Assembly: GCA_049642065.1 (NCBI GenBank)
Contig: JBAROK010000099.1
Location: forward strand, 6,744-70,743
From: Candidatus Omnitrophota bacterium
GTDB lineage: Bacteria > Omnitrophota > Gorgyraeia > Tantalellales > Tantalellaceae
Direction of reading: 5' to 3'
Length of the DNA: 64,000 nucleotides
Under the pieces are notes generated by a model that searched no databases, was not told the origin of the DNA, and worked only from the letters and a program-made list of their open reading frames with translations. Positions 4,307 through 42,259 of this stretch are shown here, one piece after another (within the stretch, counting starts at the first letter, position 1; every line of letters starts with the position of its first letter). The translations under genes and the position numbers were made by a program.

Positions 4307-5587
4307 TTACACATTTTTGCTCTTCCCGACCAGGCAGGGTATGTCTTTATCTATGTTTTCGACCATTACAGATACAATATTCCCCTTATCTGCCTCTGAA
4401 CCGTCTATCCTTACGCGCAAATATTCACCACTATACCCTTCCGTCCAGCTGCCGGCAGATCTTTCTTCTACGAGTACTTCCACTTCTTTACTGATGAATT
4501 CCTTGCAAAATTCGGCTTGAAGCAGGTCCCCGTCTGCAATCAGACGGCTAACCCTATCCTTGGCAACATCAACCGGTATCTTACCGGAAAATCCGGACGA
4601 AACTGTACCTTTTCGGTCGCTATACTTAAAAACATGCAACCTCGATGGTTTCATCTCGTTTATGAACTCCCTTGATTTAGCAAAATCCTCTTCTTTCTCG
4701 TCCGGGAAGCCAGCTATTACGTCCATGGTCACCCCAGCTAAAGGCATTTTGAATCTTATCCACTCGAGAAGATTTCTGAACTGCGCCGTGTCATATCTTC
4801 TATTCATGAGTTTAAGCACCCTGTCCGATCCGCTTTGAAGAGGCACGTGCAAATGCCGGCATACTTTCTTCGAAACAGATATAGCTTCTATAAGAGAGTC
4901 TGTTATATGGTTGGGCTCCAAAGAACTGAGCCTTATCCTGAAATCTCCTTTAATGCTCTCTATCGATTCTATAAAAGCTGAAAGATCCTGTCCCCTGCTA
5001 CCTTTCCACGATCCTAGGCAGATGCCCGTTAACACTATCTCCTTGTGTCTGCACGATACAAGCCTTATAAGCTCATCTGCGATCTCATCCTCGTGCCTGC
5101 TGCGTGAAGGCCCCCTCACTAGATTGACCTTGCAATAAGAACAGTCTTGGTCACATCCGTCCTGCATCTTCAGAAAGGCTCGGGTGTGGTCACTGAACCC
5201 GGATATACCGCTTTGCGCAGGGCCTCCGACCTTACCGGTGAAAAGAGAGTCTATCATGACGGGAAGGTCCTCTTTGTTTTTTCCCGGCACCACCTCATCC
5301 ACTTCCGGCATAGACCTTAACTTTTCGATATCTTCTTCAAATACGGCGTAGCACCCGGTAACAAACACTTTGATATGCGGATTGTCTCTTTTTACTTTAC
5401 GTATTAATTTCCGCGTCTTAACATCGGCCGTATCAGTTACAGTACAGGAATTCAGTATAAATATATCAGCATCCCCGGGATCCGATTCGGTGAATCCGAA
5501 CCGTAAGAGATTCTCTCTTATAAGCTGTTCTTCGTACTGGTTCACTTTGCAGCCTAAAGCTTTTACTGCGAATTTAGGTTTTTTCAT
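4307..5587 (-). CDS. mtaB: Radical-SAM methylthiotransferase, MtaB-like (tRNA t6A37 methylthiotransferase)
   Basis: An MTTase N-domain (KALGCKVNQYEEQ, SCTVTDTAD), a radical-SAM cysteine motif (CDQDCSYC) and a C-terminal TRAM-like domain are present. Confidence 0.75.
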   Translation of the reverse strand: MKKPKFAVKALGCKVNQYEEQLIRENLLRFGFTESDPGDADIFILNSCTVTDTADVKTRKLIRKVKRDNPHIKVFVTGCYAVFEEDIEKLRSMPEVDEVVPGKNKEDLPVMIDSLFTGKVGGPAQSGISGFSDHTRAFLKMQDGCDQDCSYCKVNLVRGPSRSRHEDEIADELIRLVSCRHKEIVLTGICLGSWKGSRGQDLSAFIESIESIKGDFRIRLSSLEPNHITDSLIEAISVSKKVCRHLHVPLQSGSDRVLKLMNRRYDTAQFRNLLEWIRFKMPLAGVTMDVIAGFPDEKEEDFAKSREFINEMKPSRLHVFKYSDRKGTVSSGFSGKIPVDVAKDRVSRLIADGDLLQAEFCKEFISKEVEVLVEERSAGSWTEGYSGEYLRVRIDGSEADKGNIVSVMVENIDKDIPCLVGKSKNV

Positions 5588-5607: not shown

Positions 5608-6345
5608 TTACACAGAGAACTCATAATCCAGGACGGATAAAAGAGCTAACCCCGCGGTATCACTCTTTAAAACTCTTTTACCGAGCGAGACGAACCTACA
5701 GTTCTCAACGTCTGCCATCTTCATCTCTTCAGGGGTGAAATCCCCTTCGGGTCCAATAAAAACCAGTATTTTCCCGCTTTTGAACCCTTCCAGGGACTTT
5801 CTTAATGAAATTGTCTTATCAGTAAGACACGCAAAAAGGACCAGATCGTACCGGTCCATCCTATCGATCATTTCACTGAATTCCGTTACCGCGTCAATCT
5901 CGGGTACATCCGTACGGCCGCACTGTTTCGCCGCTTCAACGGCTAATTTTTTCCATCTTTCCACTTTTTTTCTGCATCCCGCGTCATCCGGTCTGACAAT
6001 AGTCCTGTCACTGACTAACGGAATAACTTCACTGGCCCCCAACTCTGTCGCCTTCTCTATGATATAGTCCATTTTGCCTTTTTTGGGTAATGCTTGCGCA
6101 AGCGTTATCTCCGGCACGCGTTTAGAAGAAGGTTTCTCCGTCCGGATTATTTCCACCAAGAGTCTCCTAGCTGTTCTGTCCGTATTCTTAATAAATCCGA
6201 TATACTCGTTACCCGTACCATCAAAGACAACGACCTTATCGCCGTCCTGCATCCGCATAACGTCAAGAATATGATGTGCTTCCTTGCCGTCTATCAAGAT
6301 ATCTTCTTTGCCCACCTTTTCCGGTGATACGTAAAATCTACTCAT
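5608..6345 (-). CDS. rsmE: 16S rRNA (uracil1498-N3)-methyltransferase RsmE
   Basis: MSRFYVSPEKV...ILIDGKEAHHILDVMRMQDGDKVVVFDGTGNEYIGFI is the RsmE PUA-like N-terminus, and a SPOUT C-domain follows. The start is taken at the internal Met (MSRFY) rather than the ORF-track start at 6417. Confidence 0.75.
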   Translation of the reverse strand: MSRFYVSPEKVGKEDILIDGKEAHHILDVMRMQDGDKVVVFDGTGNEYIGFIKNTDRTARRLLVEIIRTEKPSSKRVPEITLAQALPKKGKMDYIIEKATELGASEVIPLVSDRTIVRPDDAGCRKKVERWKKLAVEAAKQCGRTDVPEIDAVTEFSEMIDRMDRYDLVLFACLTDKTISLRKSLEGFKSGKILVFIGPEGDFTPEEMKMADVENCRFVSLGKRVLKSDTAGLALLSVLDYEFSV

Positions 6346-7840
6346 TAGCTGTTTCTTTCTCCCCAAAAACTTCCGCCGTGAACACATATATATCGCATTC
6401 TCCAGTCTTCCATGCATTAGCCGGAATACCAGCCTTATGCATGCAAAGACTGTTCATAAACTCTTCTCTATCCCATCCTGTTTCGTCTGCAACCTGAGGT
6501 AAATATACCCCGCCTCTCAATCCCATCCGTACCATGACCCCGTGTTTTCCCACCTCAATTTCATTGTAATCATCTATCTTCCTCATGGGAGATAACGCAG
6601 ATATCTCTATATCCACATCGTCAAGCTCATCAAGAGTCGTAGAAGGAAATCTCGGATCTTCGGTAGCAGCAGCTATGGCCATGTCTCTCACTGTAAGATG
6701 CAGCGGCCCTGATGCGGCCATGTGCCCAATACAACCTCTTAGCGCACCGGTTTTATGTAAAGTCACAAAAGCTCCCATATCCTGTTTTAAGGCTTCGTCG
6801 TCAATCTCAGGCTCCAAACGTTTTCCTGTTTCGAGATAATATTTTATGGTATCTCTAGCTAACCTTAAAAGCTTCTTCCTCTGAGCTTCGTCGAACATAT
6901 CTGCCTCCTTGCCTTTTTTGGCTGGCTGTTCGCGCTTGGGGTTTTTGCCACTCCTTACAAAAGCAGCGCTCATATACCCGACAACACTGTCCTTCATCCC
7001 TGAAGTGTCTCCAGAATTGGCGTACTTTAATATTTTTACTTCGTCCGCGCCCAGTTTTTTAGACGCTTTCATTACCGCATATACCGCGCCAAAACCGCAC
7101 ATCCTTTCATCGTTCTTGTCTCCAAGGCTCTTCATGTAAAACTTCTCAGGATCAAACGATTCTATTGAGTCAATAGTAGTAGCATCCTGCTTCTTCGCAA
7201 CCTCATAAGGCTTCTGATGGCACATATCGGTACTTGCGACCAACGCAAAATCTTTCTCGTCTTTCAATACCTCATAAAGCGCATCAGCTAAAACGTCCGA
7301 ATTATCCATAGATTGATCAGCGATAGCTATAAGCACTAACTTAGCGTCTTTTAGCGCTACCTGCACGAAGGGTACTTCCATTTCGACTGAATTTTCCGAA
7401 ACAAACGCCTGCGGTATATATTCGATCCTGTCACTGTACGCTATTAGTTTTTCAGAGAGATCTTTGTCTATAACCGCTTTGCCCAGCGGTGTGACAAAGG
7501 TTTTTTCCATAAGCACAGAAATGCGGTTCGGAAAATACCTCCTGTGAGTGAATCCGACTATGATGACTTTGGCAGGAGGATTAGCCATTAAGGCCTTGAA
7601 CGAGTACGCTGCGATCGGTCCGGAATACCGGTATCCAGCGTGAGGAGCGATAACGCCGATAACGTCCCCCTCTATCTCGCCAAGGCGAGCGTTATTAAGA
7701 TATTTTTCAAGTTCGGCTTTGAGCTGTTGAGGGGAACCAGAGTACCATGATCCGGCAAGATCCGCCTGCTTTGCTAGCGAACATGCTGCAGGCAGAAACA
7801 ACACTAATATCAGGAATAATGAAGTAATTCGTGTTTTCAT
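6338..7840 (-). CDS. Secreted fusion protein with an N-terminal Memo-like domain (AmmeMemoRadiSam system protein B) and a C-terminal AMMECR1 domain (protein A)
   Basis: A signal peptide is present (MKTRITSLFLILVLFLPAAC). The Memo motif is GVIAPHAGYRYSGPIAAYSF. The C-terminal AMMECR1 motif is GAFVTLHKTGALRGCIGHM...GGVYLPQVADETGWDREEF. The start is taken at MKTRIT (7840); the ORF track extends it to 7915. Confidence 0.7.
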   Translation of the reverse strand: MKTRITSLFLILVLFLPAACSLAKQADLAGSWYSGSPQQLKAELEKYLNNARLGEIEGDVIGVIAPHAGYRYSGPIAAYSFKALMANPPAKVIIVGFTHRRYFPNRISVLMEKTFVTPLGKAVIDKDLSEKLIAYSDRIEYIPQAFVSENSVEMEVPFVQVALKDAKLVLIAIADQSMDNSDVLADALYEVLKDEKDFALVASTDMCHQKPYEVAKKQDATTIDSIESFDPEKFYMKSLGDKNDERMCGFGAVYAVMKASKKLGADEVKILKYANSGDTSGMKDSVVGYMSAAFVRSGKNPKREQPAKKGKEADMFDEAQRKKLLRLARDTIKYYLETGKRLEPEIDDEALKQDMGAFVTLHKTGALRGCIGHMAASGPLHLTVRDMAIAAATEDPRFPSTTLDELDDVDIEISALSPMRKIDDYNEIEVGKHGVMVRMGLRGGVYLPQVADETGWDREEFMNSLCMHKAGIPANAWKTGECDIYVFTAEVFGEKETANE

Positions 7841-7868
7841 AACCACCAGCCTTACGGGAACCGACTCT

Positions 7869-8330
7869 CTATTCAGCCTGTGTCGACATAACCCCGCGGA
7901 TCCCTTCAAAGACACCTATGTTCATAGCGTCTACGCACTGATAACACAACCCGCGAAGATCAGGTCCGGTTTCAAGCCATAACCCGTTATAATCGCTGTA
8001 GGTAAAAGGCTTCCCATCCACATTCATTTCAATAATCTCAGAACTGGCAGAAGCGATCACATACCCCAGCCTTCTTCCCCTGTTCGTAACCAACCTGCGC
8101 ACGATCACGTGAATATACACGCCAGGATCTTCGTCCACGATCTCTACATCAGGCAGCGCTTCAAAAGCAGTATTAATATAGTCCGAAACTTGCCGGTCAA
8201 CATCCTTCTCCGCGACTACTTCGATCTTTACGCGGATCTTATCGGATTCGGACAGTGCAAATGGACAAGAGAAATTGATCCCTATAAGCGTGACCAATAA
8301 TATTAACGCTAATTTTCTCATTGAATACAT
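7869..8330 (-). CDS. Hypothetical secreted protein, about 154 aa
   Basis: The ORF-track entry 7869..8477 runs through a tRNA gene, so the real start is placed at the internal MYSMRKLALILLVTLIGINF signal peptide. No family was recognised. Confidence 0.35.
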   Translation of the reverse strand: MYSMRKLALILLVTLIGINFSCPFALSESDKIRVKIEVVAEKDVDRQVSDYINTAFEALPDVEIVDEDPGVYIHVIVRRLVTNRGRRLGYVIASASSEIIEMNVDGKPFTYSDYNGLWLETGPDLRGLCYQCVDAMNIGVFEGIRGVMSTQAE

Positions 8331-8371
8331 AAGAAATGAGGATAAGCGACCAGGACCCTGATCTTTTAAAA

Positions 8372-8447
8372 TGGTGGAGCAGATGGGATTCGAACCCACG
8401 ACCCCCACGTTGCGAACGTGATGCTCTCCCAACTGAGCTACTGCCCC
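8372..8447 (-). tRNA. tRNA-Ala (anticodon CGC)
   Basis: The reverse complement is GGGGCAGTAGCTCAGTTGGGAGAGCATCACGTTCGCAACGTGGGGGTCGTGGGTTCGAATCCCATCTGCTCCACCA. It shows a 7-bp acceptor stem with the G3:U70 Ala identity pair, a D arm, the anticodon loop TTCGCAA, a T arm GTGGGTTCGAATCCCAT and an encoded CCA. Confidence 0.85.
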
Positions 8448-8465
8448 ACCTGAAAATTGGAAATC

Positions 8466-8493
8466 ATTATAACACATTTTCTTAAAACGTAAA
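8466..8493 (-). promoter_or_regulatory. Putative sigma-70 promoter for tRNA-Ala
   Basis: On the minus strand the sequence is TTTACG, 16 nt spacer, TATAAT. The -10 hexamer lies 18 nt upstream of the tRNA 5' end. Confidence 0.35.
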
Positions 8494-24236: not shown

Positions 24237-24813
24237 TATTAAAAAGATACTTCTTATTCCCAATGAGATAAGAAACGCCGCTAATAATCGTAAGCGCAAC
24301 CGTTATAAGCATCAGGATAAATATAAGCTGTTTATACCAGTATTCAAACGAATTGTTCCAAAACCCAAAAGTGCTTACCCCCGCTTCTTTTATCACAATA
24401 AATATCAAAATAACGAATATAGACAACATCTGGGACGCAGTCTTGTGTTTGCCACCCATCCCCGCGGCAAGAACCTCTTTTTTCATGAGAGCGCGGAGCC
24501 TGATACTGGTTATAAGCAGCTCCCTCATTATTATTACTACTACCATCCATGCCGGGACAAGCTTCATTTCTACAAACGCCAGAAAAGCCGCAAGAGTCAG
24601 TATCTTGTCAGCTACCGGATCCATTATTTTCCCAAAATCGGAAAAAGAATTATATTTCTTAGCGAAATATCCGTCCAGGTAGTCAGTAGCAGCTGCGACC
24701 AAAAATATCACAAGTGCCAGGATCTTACTGGTAAGTCCGCCGCAAAACAGCGCTATCATGAAAATGAAAGCCAACACGATCCTGCCTATGGTGATCTTGT
24801 TTGGCAGGTTCAT
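24226..24813 (-). CDS. pgsA: CDP-diacylglycerol--glycerol-3-phosphate 3-phosphatidyltransferase
   Basis: NKITIGRIVLAFIF...DYLDGYFAKKYN...GKIMDPVADKIL is the CDP-alcohol phosphatidyltransferase motif. Confidence 0.8.
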   Translation of the reverse strand: MNLPNKITIGRIVLAFIFMIALFCGGLTSKILALVIFLVAAATDYLDGYFAKKYNSFSDFGKIMDPVADKILTLAAFLAFVEMKLVPAWMVVVIIMRELLITSIRLRALMKKEVLAAGMGGKHKTASQMLSIFVILIFIVIKEAGVSTFGFWNNSFEYWYKQLIFILMLITVALTIISGVSYLIGNKKYLFNNGE

Positions 24814-26141
24814 GCAGCTTCTCCTATCAGGTCATATTCCATTGTACCGGTAATGCGCACATCTACAAAATCCCCGATCCTTAGGTCTTTCCCTTTGACG
24901 TAGACAATACCATCCACCTCGGGCGCGTCCATATAGGACCTGCCTAGGTACTGCGACCCATCAGAGGGATCTTTTTCATCTATCAGAACTTTTAATGTTT
25001 TATCGAAAAGCTTCATGTTGTTCTCTGTCGATATGCTTTGCTGAAGAACCATGACCTTATCGAACCTTTCCTCTTTTATCTGTTCCGGTACCTGATTATC
25101 AAAATCAGCAGCCGGAGTGCCTTCTTCTCTGGAATAAATGAACGTGCCTAGTCGATCAAACCTTGTCTCCATAAGAAACTCCAAAAGTTCACCGAATTCT
25201 TTCTCGGTCTCTCCCGGGAACCCCACTATAACTGAAGTCCTGATAACAACATCGTTTATCTCGCCCCTGATCCGGCTCAAAAGGTCCATTATCTTTTCTT
25301 TTCCCGCACGACGGTTCATTTTTTGCAGCACCCCATCATTTATGTGCTGTATCGGCATGTCCACGTAATTGCATACATTATCCGTCTCCCTGATCACGTC
25401 TATGAGCTCGTTAGTGAACTGTGCAGGATGCGTATATAAAAGTCTTATCCACCCGTCCTCCATAAGCGGGCTTGCCCTTCTTACTAGCTCTGCAAGCTCA
25501 CTCTTACCGCTTCTATCGATCCCGAAAGAGGTAATATCCTGACCGATTACAACCAACTCTTTAACCCCGTATTCACCTCTAAGCTCTTTTATCTCTTCTA
25601 GTATAGAAGAAGTCTCCCGGCTGCGTCTCGGACCCTTAAGATCCGGTATTACGCAATAAGAACACCTGTTAGAACATCCTTCCTGAATCTTTAGGTATGC
25701 AAAATGCGGTGATGTAAGCATTTTCCTCTTGTCATTATGGTCATATATCAGATCCGGAATAGTTTTAACGTTCTTGACCTTTTCTCCAGAAAAAAGCATC
25801 CCGATCTTATCGGGAATATCCTTGAAATCAGCGGATCCAAAAATACCGTCTATCTCGCCTATTTCATCCATCAGCTCGTCCGGATATCTCTGTGAAAGAC
25901 AACCGGTAACGACAAGTTTCTTTATCTTTGAGTTTTTTTTGAGAGTGGCTAACTGTAGGATGGTATTAATAGATTCTTGTTTCGCGTCCTGGATGAACCC
26001 GCAGGTATTAACGATCGCTACGTCCGCGCCTTCCGCTTCTTCTGTGATCGTGAACCCTTTTTTCTCAAGAAGCCCCAAAAGGACTTCGCTGTCTACAAGA
26101 TTCCGCGGACAACCGAGACTGAGAAGATAGACCTTTTTCAT
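24810..26141 (-). CDS. rimO: Ribosomal protein S12 methylthiotransferase RimO
   Basis: KVYLLSLGCPRNLVDSE is the RimO N-terminus. The radical-SAM motif CSNRCSYC and a C-terminal TRAM domain are present. Confidence 0.8.
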   Translation of the reverse strand: MKKVYLLSLGCPRNLVDSEVLLGLLEKKGFTITEEAEGADVAIVNTCGFIQDAKQESINTILQLATLKKNSKIKKLVVTGCLSQRYPDELMDEIGEIDGIFGSADFKDIPDKIGMLFSGEKVKNVKTIPDLIYDHNDKRKMLTSPHFAYLKIQEGCSNRCSYCVIPDLKGPRRSRETSSILEEIKELRGEYGVKELVVIGQDITSFGIDRSGKSELAELVRRASPLMEDGWIRLLYTHPAQFTNELIDVIRETDNVCNYVDMPIQHINDGVLQKMNRRAGKEKIMDLLSRIRGEINDVVIRTSVIVGFPGETEKEFGELLEFLMETRFDRLGTFIYSREEGTPAADFDNQVPEQIKEERFDKVMVLQQSISTENNMKLFDKTLKVLIDEKDPSDGSQYLGRSYMDAPEVDGIVYVKGKDLRIGDFVDVRITGTMEYDLIGEAA

Positions 26142-41865: not shown

Positions 41866-42144
41866 TTAAAATCTTATCTCAAACAACGAAAATTCTCCGC
41901 TTTTAGGTTCCCATTTCACTTGAGAATCACTAATATACCCGTCCATATCTTTTTCTATTCCATATAGAAACGACTCCAGCTGATCCTGGGTAGCCTCACA
42001 AACTATCTCTACCCTTCCATCAGGAAGATTTTTTACAAATCCTGTCACCTCGTTCTGAGAGGCTAATTTTTCAGCGGTAAACCTGAAACCGACACCCTGA
42101 ACGTTGCCGCTGAACACTACATGAGCCCTCTGTGCCTGTTCCAT
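41866..42144 (-). CDS. acyP: Acylphosphatase
   Basis: VVFSGNVQGVGFRFTAEKLASQNEVTGFVKNLPDGRVEIV matches acylphosphatase. The start is taken at MEQAQRA; the ORF-track 5' extension to 42243 is read-through into the tRNA gene. Confidence 0.7.
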   Translation of the reverse strand: MEQAQRAHVVFSGNVQGVGFRFTAEKLASQNEVTGFVKNLPDGRVEIVCEATQDQLESFLYGIEKDMDGYISDSQVKWEPKSGEFSLFEIRF

Positions 42145-42182
42145 GGATGGATTCCTGTCTGAAGAGAAAATGTTTTGAAGTA

Positions 42183-42259
42183 TGGTCGGGGCGCTGGGAT
42201 TTGAACCCAGGACCTCCACGTCCCGAACGTGGCGCGCTGCCAAACTGCGCTACGCCCCG
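42183..42259 (-). tRNA. tRNA-Pro (anticodon CGG)
   Basis: The reverse complement is CGGGGCGTAGCGCAGTTTGGCAGCGCGCCACGTTCGGGACGTGGAGGTCCTGGGTTCAAATCCCAGCGCCCCGACCA. It has a 7-bp acceptor stem, a D arm, the anticodon loop TTCGGGA, a T arm and an encoded CCA. Confidence 0.85.

What the first reader, a model, noticed from the sequence alone, without database searches (positions are those of the whole stretch)
6338..7840. Signal-peptide-bearing fusion of Memo-like and AMMECR1 domains without the radical-SAM partner
AmmeMemoRadiSam systems normally consist of three separate cytoplasmic proteins: AMMECR1, a Memo-like protein and a radical-SAM activase. Here the Memo-like domain (HAGYRYSG motif) and the AMMECR1 domain (LRGCIGHM motif) sit in one polypeptide behind a cleavable or lipoprotein-like signal peptide (LFLPAAC), so the protein is predicted to be extracytoplasmic. 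The only radical-SAM gene nearby, mtaB at 4307-5587, belongs to the MTTase family and is not the cognate activase. A periplasmic fused form without its activase is unexpected and hints at an envelope-located function.
Basis: partly seen in the sequence, partly recalled or inferred. Interest (0 to 1): 0.55.

Follow-up and report, generated by a model that had tools for sequence, protein, structure and literature searches.

The report
Exported Memo–AMMECR1 fusion, rSAM partner missing locally
This gene encodes a two-domain protein of unknown chemistry (Memo-like plus AMMECR1) that is almost certainly secreted into the periplasm; it belongs to an Omnitrophota-wide branch that has lost the neighbouring radical-SAM partner and changed one otherwise invariant pocket histidine, while relatives in many phyla appear to export the whole system, radical-SAM enzyme included.

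Summary
A 500-aa gene (7840→6338, minus strand) fuses a Memo/AmrB domain to an AMMECR1/AmrA domain behind a canonical Sec signal peptide. No AmmeMemoRadiSam radical-SAM gene (amrS) lies anywhere in the 64 kb.

The interpretation needs correcting:
- The fusion is a common architecture that NCBI's annotation pipeline names amrB. It occurs in more than 15 phyla, and about four in five copies carry Sec or lipoprotein signals.
- In 32 of 80 species the fused gene sits next to amrS. That amrS often carries a twin-arginine (Tat) or hydrophobic leader of its own.
- Other Omnitrophota have amrS–fusion–dsbD-like–rsmE–mtaB. The window's clade has only fusion–rsmE–mtaB.
- All 125 members of the window's clade replace the Memo "EHS" histidine with Asn or Gln. 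It is invariant in 72 of 72 other fusions.

So this is a derived, exported variant of a known family, probably SPase-I cleaved and not a lipoprotein. Whether amrS exists elsewhere in the genome could not be tested, and unlinked amrS genes are common. The unexpected by-product is an apparently extracytoplasmic radical-SAM system.

The parts
6338..7840 (-). amrB-amrA fusion gene (Memo-like + AMMECR1), 500 aa, including the TAG stop at 6338-6340
   Evidence: The closest relatives are 52-98% identical Omnitrophota proteins of about 500 aa carrying both domains.
7843..7847 (-). Shine-Dalgarno-like GGTGG, separated from the ATG by 2 nt
   Evidence: sequence read directly.
7772..7840 (-). Sec-type signal peptide, residues 1-23 (MKTR / ITSLFLILVLFLPAA / CSLA, predicted cleavage before K24)
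   Evidence: n-, h- and c-regions with A-x-A before Lys are conserved in 104 orthologues. The AlphaFold2 model shows an N-terminal helix at residues 2-14 detached from the fold.
6965..7765 (-). Memo / AmrB domain (residues 26-292). Retains H67, H99, D205, H208 and C248.
   Evidence: The alignment to human MEMO1 maps H81 to H67, D189 to D205, H192 to H208 and C244 to C248.
7391..7393 (-). Codon for Asn150 (AAT), at the position of the otherwise invariant His of the Memo 'EHS' motif (human MEMO1 H131)
   Evidence: His in 72/72 fusions outside the window's clade; Asn or Gln in 125/125 inside it.
6869..6964 (-). Lys-rich, low-confidence interdomain linker (residues 293-324)
   Evidence: pLDDT below 50 for residues 300-312.
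6365..6868 (-). AMMECR1 / AmrA domain (residues 325-492), with LRGCIG Cys370 (codon 6731-6733) retained
   Evidence: E 4e-35 to the archaeal AMMECR1 structure 1VAJ.
5608..6345 (-). rsmE (16S rRNA m3U1498 methyltransferase). Its ATG overlaps the fusion's stop by 8 nt (ATGAGTAG). This is conserved operon context, not a functional part.
   Evidence: The order fusion-rsmE is conserved in all clade members.
4307..5587 (-). mtaB (tRNA ms2t6A methylthiotransferase). It is the only nearby radical-SAM gene and is not the cognate AmrS.
   Evidence: TIGR01579 above its cut-off. No match to the amrS HMM.
8372..8447 (-). tRNA-Ala(CGC). It marks the upstream boundary of the locus; in relative L070, amrS lies between this tRNA and the fusion.

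Best explanation
The gene encodes a Sec-exported periplasmic protein in which a Memo-type (LigB-fold) metal-binding domain is joined by a flexible linker to an AMMECR1 domain. SPase I most likely cleaves it after Ala23.

It is the positional orthologue of the amrB-amrA fusion that other Omnitrophota encode in an operon amrS - fusion - dsbD-like - rsmE - mtaB. In the window's clade, amrS and the DsbD-like gene have been deleted from that operon. The pocket histidine of the Memo 'EHS' motif has become Asn or Gln. Every other conserved residue of both domains is kept, so the protein is still under selection.

**Shown**
- Domain identity and the start codon.
- A conserved export signal.
- Operon remodelling.
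- The clade-wide substitution.

**Inferred**
- The mature protein works in the periplasm on an envelope-associated or periplasmic substrate.
- It uses the retained His67/Cys248 metal site and the AMMECR1 Cys370.
- In this clade it does so without radical-SAM chemistry. This would parallel eukaryotes, which keep MEMO1 and AMMECR1 but have no AmrS.

The chemical reaction is unknown for this family in any organism.
For: **Domains and start**
-.

**Export signal**
- It is conserved in the family.
- Homologues in other phyla carry lipoboxes at the same place. Lipoboxes occur only on exported proteins.

**Synteny**
- Fusion-rsmE-mtaB-cvpA-dnaG is found in the window and in all 14 clade loci that reach past the fusion's 3' end. 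None has amrS.
- All four Omnitrophota amrS contexts examined show amrS-fusion-DsbD_2-rsmE(-mtaB).
- DsbD_2 is present only where amrS is present.

**Phylogeny**
- A neighbour-joining tree places the window's clade as sister to the other Omnitrophota fusions. The two together form one group among the fusions of other phyla.

**Residues**
- Of the 89 positions that are at least 85% conserved in amrS-linked fusions, 80 are kept in the window's clade.
- The one 100%-invariant position that changes is His150 to Asn/Gln.
- That His corresponds to MEMO1 H131, which lies next to the metal site (PMC11081632).

**Structure**
- The AlphaFold2 model is confident for both domains (mean pLDDT 90.9).
Against: - Genome-wide absence of amrS was not tested; only 64 kb is available.
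- amrS is often unlinked from Memo/AMMECR1 genes. Of 80 amrS-centred loci, 40 have no such neighbour.
- Several other Omnitrophota fusions that keep His150 also lack an adjacent amrS (L017, L019, L022, L023, L026, L028, L050).
- Signal-peptide cleavage and localisation are predictions only.
- The interdomain arrangement is uncertain (pTM 0.63).
- No substrate can be named.
- The tree is neighbour-joining without support values.
Confidence: 0.6

Rival explanations
1. The system is intact. amrS (and perhaps the DsbD-like gene) has merely moved elsewhere in the genome, and the exported fusion still depends on radical-SAM chemistry. Dependence could arise in two ways: AmrS modifies the preprotein or its substrate in the cytoplasm before export, or AmrS is itself targeted to the envelope.
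For: - Unlinked amrS genes are common (40 of 80 loci).
- amrS is widespread in Omnitrophota (at least 120 clusters).
- In Segatella, a signal-bearing fusion sits beside a leaderless amrS.
- Cytoplasmic radical-SAM maturation of a protein that is later exported has published precedent in HxsA (PMC13128918).
Against: - In all four Omnitrophota amrS contexts examined, amrS is glued to the fusion.
- amrS and DsbD_2 are missing together, and the clade shows a fixed His150 to Asn/Gln change. That points to a functional shift more than to simple relocation.
- No contig length is shared between the top 120 clade fusions and the top 120 Omnitrophota AmrS proteins. This is weak evidence.
Confidence: 0.33
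2. The N-terminal hydrophobic segment is an uncleaved signal-anchor, so the protein is tethered to the outer face of the inner membrane and is not released into the periplasm.
For: - The h-region is long (median 18 uncharged residues).
- About 18% of orthologues have Val at -1, which is poor for SPase I.
- Homologues in other phyla are membrane-tethered as lipoproteins.
Against: A-x-A directly before an invariant Lys is the dominant pattern. In the window protein, S-L-A before K fits the -3/-1 rule.
Confidence: 0.15
3. The protein acts with RsmE and MtaB in cytoplasmic RNA modification, as suggested by the tight operon and the published prediction (recalled from memory) that links Memo/AMMECR1 to nucleotide-base modification. 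On this reading the hydrophobic N-terminus is not an export signal.
For: - The stop/start overlap with rsmE.
- Phylum-wide synteny with rsmE and mtaB.
Against: - Three independent kinds of export signal occur across the family: SPase I sites, lipoboxes, and Tat leaders on the partner.
- The rsmE linkage is confined to Omnitrophota.
- The same block continues into cvpA, dnaG and rpoD, so it is housekeeping synteny.
Confidence: 0.04

Closest known systems
Fused AmmeMemoRadiSam protein B/A ('amrB' in NCBI annotation), e.g. Segatella hominis WP_218456557.1 and Ideonella dechloratans WP_151123310.1
   Same: - Same Memo-then-AMMECR1 order and a similar length (464-491 aa).
- Same conserved residues.
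- The Segatella protein also has a signal-like N-terminus.
   Different: - Both of these have amrS immediately downstream and keep the EHS histidine.
- The Ideonella protein has no signal peptide.
- The window gene has no amrS nearby and carries Asn150.
Other Omnitrophota fusions in the operon amrS-fusion-dsbD_2-rsmE-mtaB (L070, L086-L088)
   Same: - Same phylum.
- Same position upstream of rsmE/mtaB; in L070 it also lies downstream of tRNA-Ala.
- Signal peptide present.
- 38-42% identity.
   Different: They retain amrS (with a hydrophobic leader), the DsbD-like membrane protein and His150. The window's clade lacks all three.
Eukaryotic MEMO1 and AMMECR1
   Same: - Memo and AMMECR1 are present without any AmrS-type radical-SAM enzyme (established knowledge).
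- The MEMO1 metal ligands H81 and C244 are conserved here as H67 and C248 (PMC11081632).
   Different: - The eukaryotic proteins are separate and cytosolic or nuclear.
- MEMO1 ligand H49 is Leu28 here.
- MEMO1 keeps H131, whereas the window protein has Asn150.
Archaeal stand-alone AMMECR1 proteins (PH0010, PDB 1VAJ; MM0484, PDB 1ZQ7)
   Same: The AMMECR1 domain is clearly homologous (E 4e-35 and 2e-33), including the LRGCIG motif.
   Different: They are single-domain and have no signal peptide. Their function is still listed as unknown (PMC6393860).
Radical-SAM-matured exported proteins (anaerobic sulfatase-maturing enzyme with sulfatases; HxsB/C with HxsA)
   Same: They are a possible working analogy for relatives in which a leaderless amrS sits beside a signal-bearing fusion: modify in the cytoplasm, then export (PMC13128918; the sulfatase case is from established knowledge).
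   Different: There is no homology. Many AmrS proteins carry export leaders of their own, which these maturases do not.

Membership tests
AmmeMemoRadiSam system protein B (TIGR04336; Pfam Memo PF01875) | Profile score above the curated cut-off | tested here: met
   241.8 bits against 26; Pfam 209.6 bits against 27.
AmmeMemoRadiSam system protein B (TIGR04336; Pfam Memo PF01875) | Conserved pocket residues: HAG His, EHS His, SxDxxH, CG Cys | tested here: not met
   H67, D205, H208 and C248 are present. The EHS His is Asn150; that position is invariant His in 72/72 fusions outside the clade. Membership by homology stands, but the pocket is altered.
AmmeMemoRadiSam system protein A (TIGR04335; Pfam AMMECR1 PF01871) | Profile score above the cut-off, and the LRGCIG cysteine | tested here: met
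   174.3 bits against 99. C370 lies in LRGCIGHM and is invariant in all alignments.
Complete three-component AmmeMemoRadiSam system | A TIGR04337 radical-SAM enzyme encoded with A and B | tested here: not met
   There is no amrS-like ORF in 64 kb (best E 1.3). None occurs in the flanks of the 15 other clade loci. The rest of the genome was not available.
Complete three-component AmmeMemoRadiSam system | A TIGR04337 gene anywhere in the same genome | not testable with these tools
   Only the window and flanks of up to 10 kb around relatives can be read.
Sec/SPase I secretory protein | Positive n-region, hydrophobic h-region of 10-20 residues, small residues at -3 and -1 | tested here: met
   MKTR / ITSLFLILVLFLPAA / C-S-L-A before K. 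The pattern is conserved in 104 orthologues. Cleavage itself cannot be tested here.
Bacterial lipoprotein (SPase II) | Lipobox [LVI][ASTVI][GAS]C with a conserved Cys at +1 | tested here: not met
   P-A-A-C has Pro at -3, and Cys20 is absent from most orthologues. Many homologues in other phyla do have good lipoboxes.
Tat substrate | Twin-arginine motif in the n-region | tested here: not met
   The window protein has no RR. RR leaders are found on the AmrS partners of relatives, not on the fusions.
MtaB as the cognate radical-SAM partner | Membership of TIGR04337 rather than the methylthiotransferase family | tested here: not met
   TIGR01579 386.5 bits, above its cut-off of 357. No match to the amrS HMM.

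The most novel reading that the evidence does not exclude
The window gene is the surviving half of an entirely extracytoplasmic AmmeMemoRadiSam pathway.

- In many anaerobic phyla the Memo-AMMECR1 fusion is exported by Sec or as a lipoprotein.
- In those phyla its radical-SAM partner AmrS is exported folded through Tat, or anchored by a hydrophobic leader. That would make AmrS a radical-SAM enzyme working outside the cytoplasm.
- In this Omnitrophota clade the pathway has been rewired to run without AmrS and without its DsbD-like electron conduit, through a remodelled Memo pocket (His150 to Asn).
Probability: 0.35. Interest if true: 0.8.

Novelty: new variant of a known kind. Interest (0 to 1): 0.55.

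Why it matters
- **An open functional question.** Memo and AMMECR1 are conserved from archaea to humans and are linked to disease. Their biochemical function is still unknown (PMC6393860; PMC11081632).
- **Where to look for the substrate.** A large bacterial branch of the family is exported. This points to the cell envelope as the place to search for the substrate.
- **A natural experiment.** One clade keeps the radical-SAM partner, a DsbD-like gene and the pocket histidine. The sister clade has lost all three from the locus. Comparing them could show what the radical-SAM step contributes.
- **A challenge to current assumptions.** Twin-arginine leaders on many AmrS enzymes, if functional, would conflict with the assumption that radical-SAM chemistry is confined to the cytoplasm.

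Tried and rejected
**Literature**
- Searches for AmmeMemoRadiSam, for AMMECR1 with Memo and radical SAM, for periplasmic or Tat radical SAM, and for AMMECR1 with signal peptide found no paper on exported forms.
- The key comparative paper (Burroughs et al. 2019, PMC6664185) is not held. Its conclusions are cited from memory only.

**Searches that failed or led nowhere**
- A first attempt to scan genomes with a nine-sequence alignment failed because no stretch was conserved enough. A six-sequence alignment worked.
- I tried to link unlinked amrS metagenome loci to the window's lineage through shared neighbours. No convincing synteny appeared.
- I compared contig lengths between the fusion and AmrS hit lists as a proxy for co-location. 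There were no matches, but this is weak evidence.

**Readings considered and rejected**
- The small secreted ORF upstream (7869-8327) is neither an amrS remnant nor a replacement partner. It has no amrS similarity and is conserved in only two relatives.
- The lipoprotein reading is rejected.
- The upstream GTG start at 7915 is rejected because it overlaps the preceding ORF and is not supported by orthologues.
- L031, L052 and L061 are not triple fusions. The overlap is an artefact of stop-free, high-GC reading frames.

**Limits of the tools**
Full report
**1. What is there**

On the minus strand an ORF runs from ATG 7840 to TAG 6338-6340 and encodes 500 aa. Pfam finds Memo at residues 26-292 (E 6.6e-62) and AMMECR1 at 325-492 (E 4.5e-55). 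NCBIfam finds AmmeMemoRadiSam protein B (TIGR04336, 241.8 bits) and protein A (TIGR04335, 174.3 bits), both far above their cut-offs.

The ATG is preceded by GGTGG, and the upstream ORF ends at 7869-7871. The longer GTG-initiated ORF in the mechanical list overlaps that upstream gene and is not supported by orthologues. The gene's stop overlaps the ATG of rsmE by 8 nt (ATGAGTAG). Next come mtaB, a CvpA-family gene, a NIF3-like gene and dnaG. tRNA-Ala lies upstream.

**2. The signal peptide is real and is a family trait**

The N-terminus reads MKTR / ITSLFLILVLFLPAA / CSLA, followed by K24, and the Memo domain starts at residue 26.

- The 120 closest database proteins are 52-98% identical, about 500 aa long, and named Candidatus Omnitrophota where a name exists. 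Nearly all show the same design.
- Together with the window protein these make 121 sequences. In the 104 with a usable leader, the n-region is net positive in 101 and the uncharged run has a median of 18 residues.
- Position -3 is Ala in 63% (a residue acceptable to SPase I in 99%), and -1 is Ala in 67%. The next residue is always Lys. This is a Sec/SPase I signal.
- The lipoprotein alternative fails. Pro occupies -3 of the would-be lipobox, and Cys20 is not conserved.
- The AlphaFold2 model (mean pLDDT 90.9) shows an N-terminal helix, two confident domains and a disordered linker at 300-312. A pTM of 0.63 means the relative domain orientation is not reliable.

**3. The fusion is common and is usually exported**

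A tblastn search of plasmids with the AMMECR1 half hit two genes annotated 'amrB: AmmeMemoRadiSam system protein B', in Segatella hominis and Ideonella dechloratans. Both are Memo-AMMECR1 fusions followed directly by amrS.

A scan of one genome per species found 577 confirmed relatives. The best 80 are full-length matches spanning both domains, except for a few cut by contig ends and two (L074, L082) whose reading frame ends after the Memo domain. They come from Omnitrophota, Desulfobacterota, Latescibacterota, Eisenbacteria, Zixibacteria, Kiritimatiellia, Lentisphaerae, Chloroflexota, Armatimonadota, Margulisiibacteriota, WOR-3, KSB1, Acidobacteriota, Nitrospirota, Bacteroidales and Altiarchaeota.

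By a hydrophobicity-and-start-codon heuristic that I then checked by eye, about 66 of the 80 have an N-terminal signal before the Memo AGxFY/WY motif. Outside the window's clade many of these are good lipoboxes (LLAGC, LISAC, FLSGC and others). The clear exceptions are two small Desulfobacterota groups, one starting MTQDIRKSIIAGSWY and the other made up of L074 and L082.

So 'three separate cytoplasmic proteins' is not the norm against which this gene should be judged.

**4. The radical-SAM partner**

- I built an amrS HMM from 33 loci. Representatives score 345-380 bits on TIGR04337, against a cut-off of 220.
- amrS lies within the available flanks in 32 of the 80 species loci.
- It is absent from the whole 64-kb window (best E 1.3 with filters off).
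- It is absent from all 15 other loci of the window's clade, defined as at least 52% identity (L003-L015 and L018).
- The two CxxxCxxC ORFs in the window are MtaB and RimO.

**5. The window's clade is a derived state**

amrS is widespread in Omnitrophota: at least 120 clusters are 60-100% identical to the L070 enzyme. In all four contexts examined the order is amrS - fusion - DsbD_2/CcdA-like membrane protein - rsmE, followed by mtaB in three of them. In L070 the whole block lies downstream of tRNA-Ala.

The window's clade has the same frame, fusion - rsmE - mtaB - cvpA - NIF3-like - dnaG (- rpoD), in the window and in every clade locus that extends past the fusion. It lacks both amrS and the DsbD-like gene. 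Among all loci, the DsbD-like gene occurs only in the four Omnitrophota loci that also have amrS.

A neighbour-joining tree of the mature regions places the window's clade as a monophyletic sister to the other Omnitrophota fusions. The two together form one group among the fusions of other phyla (no support values).

**6. A clade-wide change in the Memo pocket**

I compared 125 clade sequences with 36 amrS-linked fusions. Of the 89 positions that are at least 85% conserved in the amrS-linked set, 80 are also conserved in the clade. These include H67, H99, D205, H208, C248 and the AMMECR1 residues R368, G369, C370, D395, R397, P448 and Q449.

The single position that is 100% invariant in the linked set and different in the clade is residue 150. 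It is His in 72 of 72 fusions outside the clade, whether or not amrS is adjacent. It is Asn (or Gln) in 125 of 125 inside it. The window has Asn, codon 7391-7393.

Alignment to human MEMO1 equates this position with H131. The crystal-structure paper describes H131 as close to the Fe/Cu site but not a ligand; the ligands are H49, H81 and C244 (PMC11081632). H81 and C244 are kept here as H67 and C248. H49 is Leu28 here and Val or Ile in other bacterial fusions.

The protein is therefore under purifying selection but has a remodelled pocket. This fits a functional shift that accompanied the loss of amrS and the DsbD-like gene from the operon.

**7. Limits on 'without the radical-SAM partner'**

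- In 80 amrS-centred metagenome loci, 36 have an adjacent fusion, 4 have an adjacent Memo-domain match with no AMMECR1 match (mostly cut by a contig end), none has clearly separate A and B genes, and 40 have no Memo or AMMECR1 gene in the flanks. About a dozen of those 40 have 6 kb on both sides. Unlinked amrS is therefore common.
- Seven other Omnitrophota fusions that keep His150 also lack an adjacent amrS.
- I could not read the rest of any clade genome.
- I put the probability that the clade truly lacks amrS at roughly one half.

**8. An unexpected by-product: AmrS itself carries export leaders**

Many AmrS enzymes begin 30-60 residues before the TIGR04337 model starts.

| Sample | Twin-arginine leader | Hydrophobic Sec-like leader or anchor | No leader | Undetermined |
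|---|---|---|---|---|
| 36 amrS genes beside fusions | about 17 | about 11 | 5 | 3 |
| 80 amrS-centred metagenome loci | 43 | 13 | 20 | 4 |

- Typical twin-arginine leaders are MPEITRRELIKK…, MEGITRREFIKKAAVVGAGLG… and MKKISRREFLKRSLLATGG….
- Five of ten tested leaders pass the curated Tat-signal model TIGR01409.
- In Omnitrophota, 117 of 120 AmrS homologues have a hydrophobic leader.

The fusions carry Sec or lipoprotein signals, so the whole system appears to be extracytoplasmic in many anaerobes. How a radical-SAM enzyme would obtain SAM and a low-potential reductant outside the cytoplasm is unexplained. Possibilities include the following:
- a single-turnover 'activase' exported with SAM bound;
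- a vestigial Tat leader used only for cofactor proofreading;
- in lineages such as Segatella, where AmrS has no leader, modification in the cytoplasm before export, as published for HxsA (PMC13128918).

I found no description of this in the held literature. I could not read Burroughs et al. 2019, which from memory links Memo systems to nucleotide-base and isoprenoid modification.

**9. Verdict**

It rests on a wrong baseline, because fused and exported is the usual form of this architecture and often sits beside amrS.

The gene is a new variant of a known kind. It is an SPase-I-type exported AmrB-AmrA fusion from an Omnitrophota clade marked by operon loss of amrS and the DsbD-like gene and by the EHS-to-ENS/EQS substitution. 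The biochemical role remains unknown. The most useful lead is the natural contrast between this clade and its amrS-linked sister clade, together with the possible existence of exported radical-SAM enzymes.

Noticed in passing
L016, L024, L034, L036, L045, L053, L054, L058, L063, L065, L067, L071, L073, L079, L082, L084, L085; and 43 of L089-L168: AmrS radical-SAM enzymes (TIGR04337) begin with textbook twin-arginine signal peptides. Five of ten tested pass the curated TIGR01409 cut-off. A Tat-targeted radical-SAM enzyme would be very unusual.
   Followed up: partly
L070:11449-12108, L086:8549-9223, L087:8622-9296, L088:8575-9237: A DsbD_2/CcdA-like membrane protein sits between the fusion and rsmE only in Omnitrophota loci that also have amrS (all 4 amrS-linked loci, none of the other loci). 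This suggests a functional tie between amrS and a transmembrane thiol-electron conduit.
   Followed up: partly
Omnitrophota AmrS proteins P0121-P0240 (e.g. L070:8842-9933): 117 of 120 Omnitrophota AmrS homologues have a Sec-like hydrophobic N-terminal leader or anchor in place of a Tat motif. Sec export would be incompatible with a pre-assembled Fe-S cluster, so the topology is puzzling.
   Followed up: partly
window 7869-8327 (-): An ORF of about 150 aa with its own signal peptide (MRKLALILLVTLIGINFSCPFALSE) and no Pfam or NCBIfam match. It lies between tRNA-Ala and the fusion, the slot that amrS occupies in L070. It is conserved only in L005 and L006.
   Followed up: partly
window 8372-8447 and 42183-42259 (-): These are tRNA-Ala(CGC) and tRNA-Pro(CGG). 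The mechanical ORFs 7869-8477 and 41866-42243 read through them (…GAVAQLGEHHVRNVGVVGSNP…). Their N-terminal parts are artefacts.
   Followed up: yes
window 6338-6345: The fusion's TAG stop overlaps the rsmE ATG (ATGAGTAG), implying translational coupling. The block fusion-rsmE-mtaB-cvpA-NIF3-like-dnaG(-rpoD) is syntenic across the clade.
   Followed up: yes
L033, L039, L044, L049, L051, L052, L054, L056, L058, L059, L061, L069, L071, L073, L076-L079, L084, L085: A membrane protein of about 750 aa with a central spermidine-synthase-like domain (PF01564) recurs next to the fusion or amrS in 21 non-Omnitrophota loci. It may be a further component of the exported system.
   Followed up: partly
L089-L168: In loci centred on this AmrS subfamily, every complete adjacent Memo/AMMECR1 partner is the fused form (36 fused, none clearly separate; 4 further loci show only a Memo-domain match, mostly cut by a contig end). 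Half of the amrS genes have no such neighbour at all.
   Followed up: yes
L006, L009, L018, L022, L026: Metagenome-assembled genomes titled 'uncultured Planctomycetia/Planctomycetales' carry Omnitrophota-type fusion genes. L006, L009 and L018 also show the conserved downstream synteny. The taxonomic labels look doubtful.
   Followed up: no
L022, L026, L028 (upstream of the fusion): A DsbA-like thioredoxin and a MauE/DoxX-like membrane protein lie immediately upstream of the fusion in some Omnitrophota that lack an adjacent amrS. This is another periplasmic thiol-redox association.
   Followed up: no
window 24810-26141 (-): A second methylthiotransferase-family radical-SAM gene, RimO (TIGR01125, 502 bits), lies in the window. 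It is unrelated to the AmmeMemoRadiSam system.
   Followed up: yes
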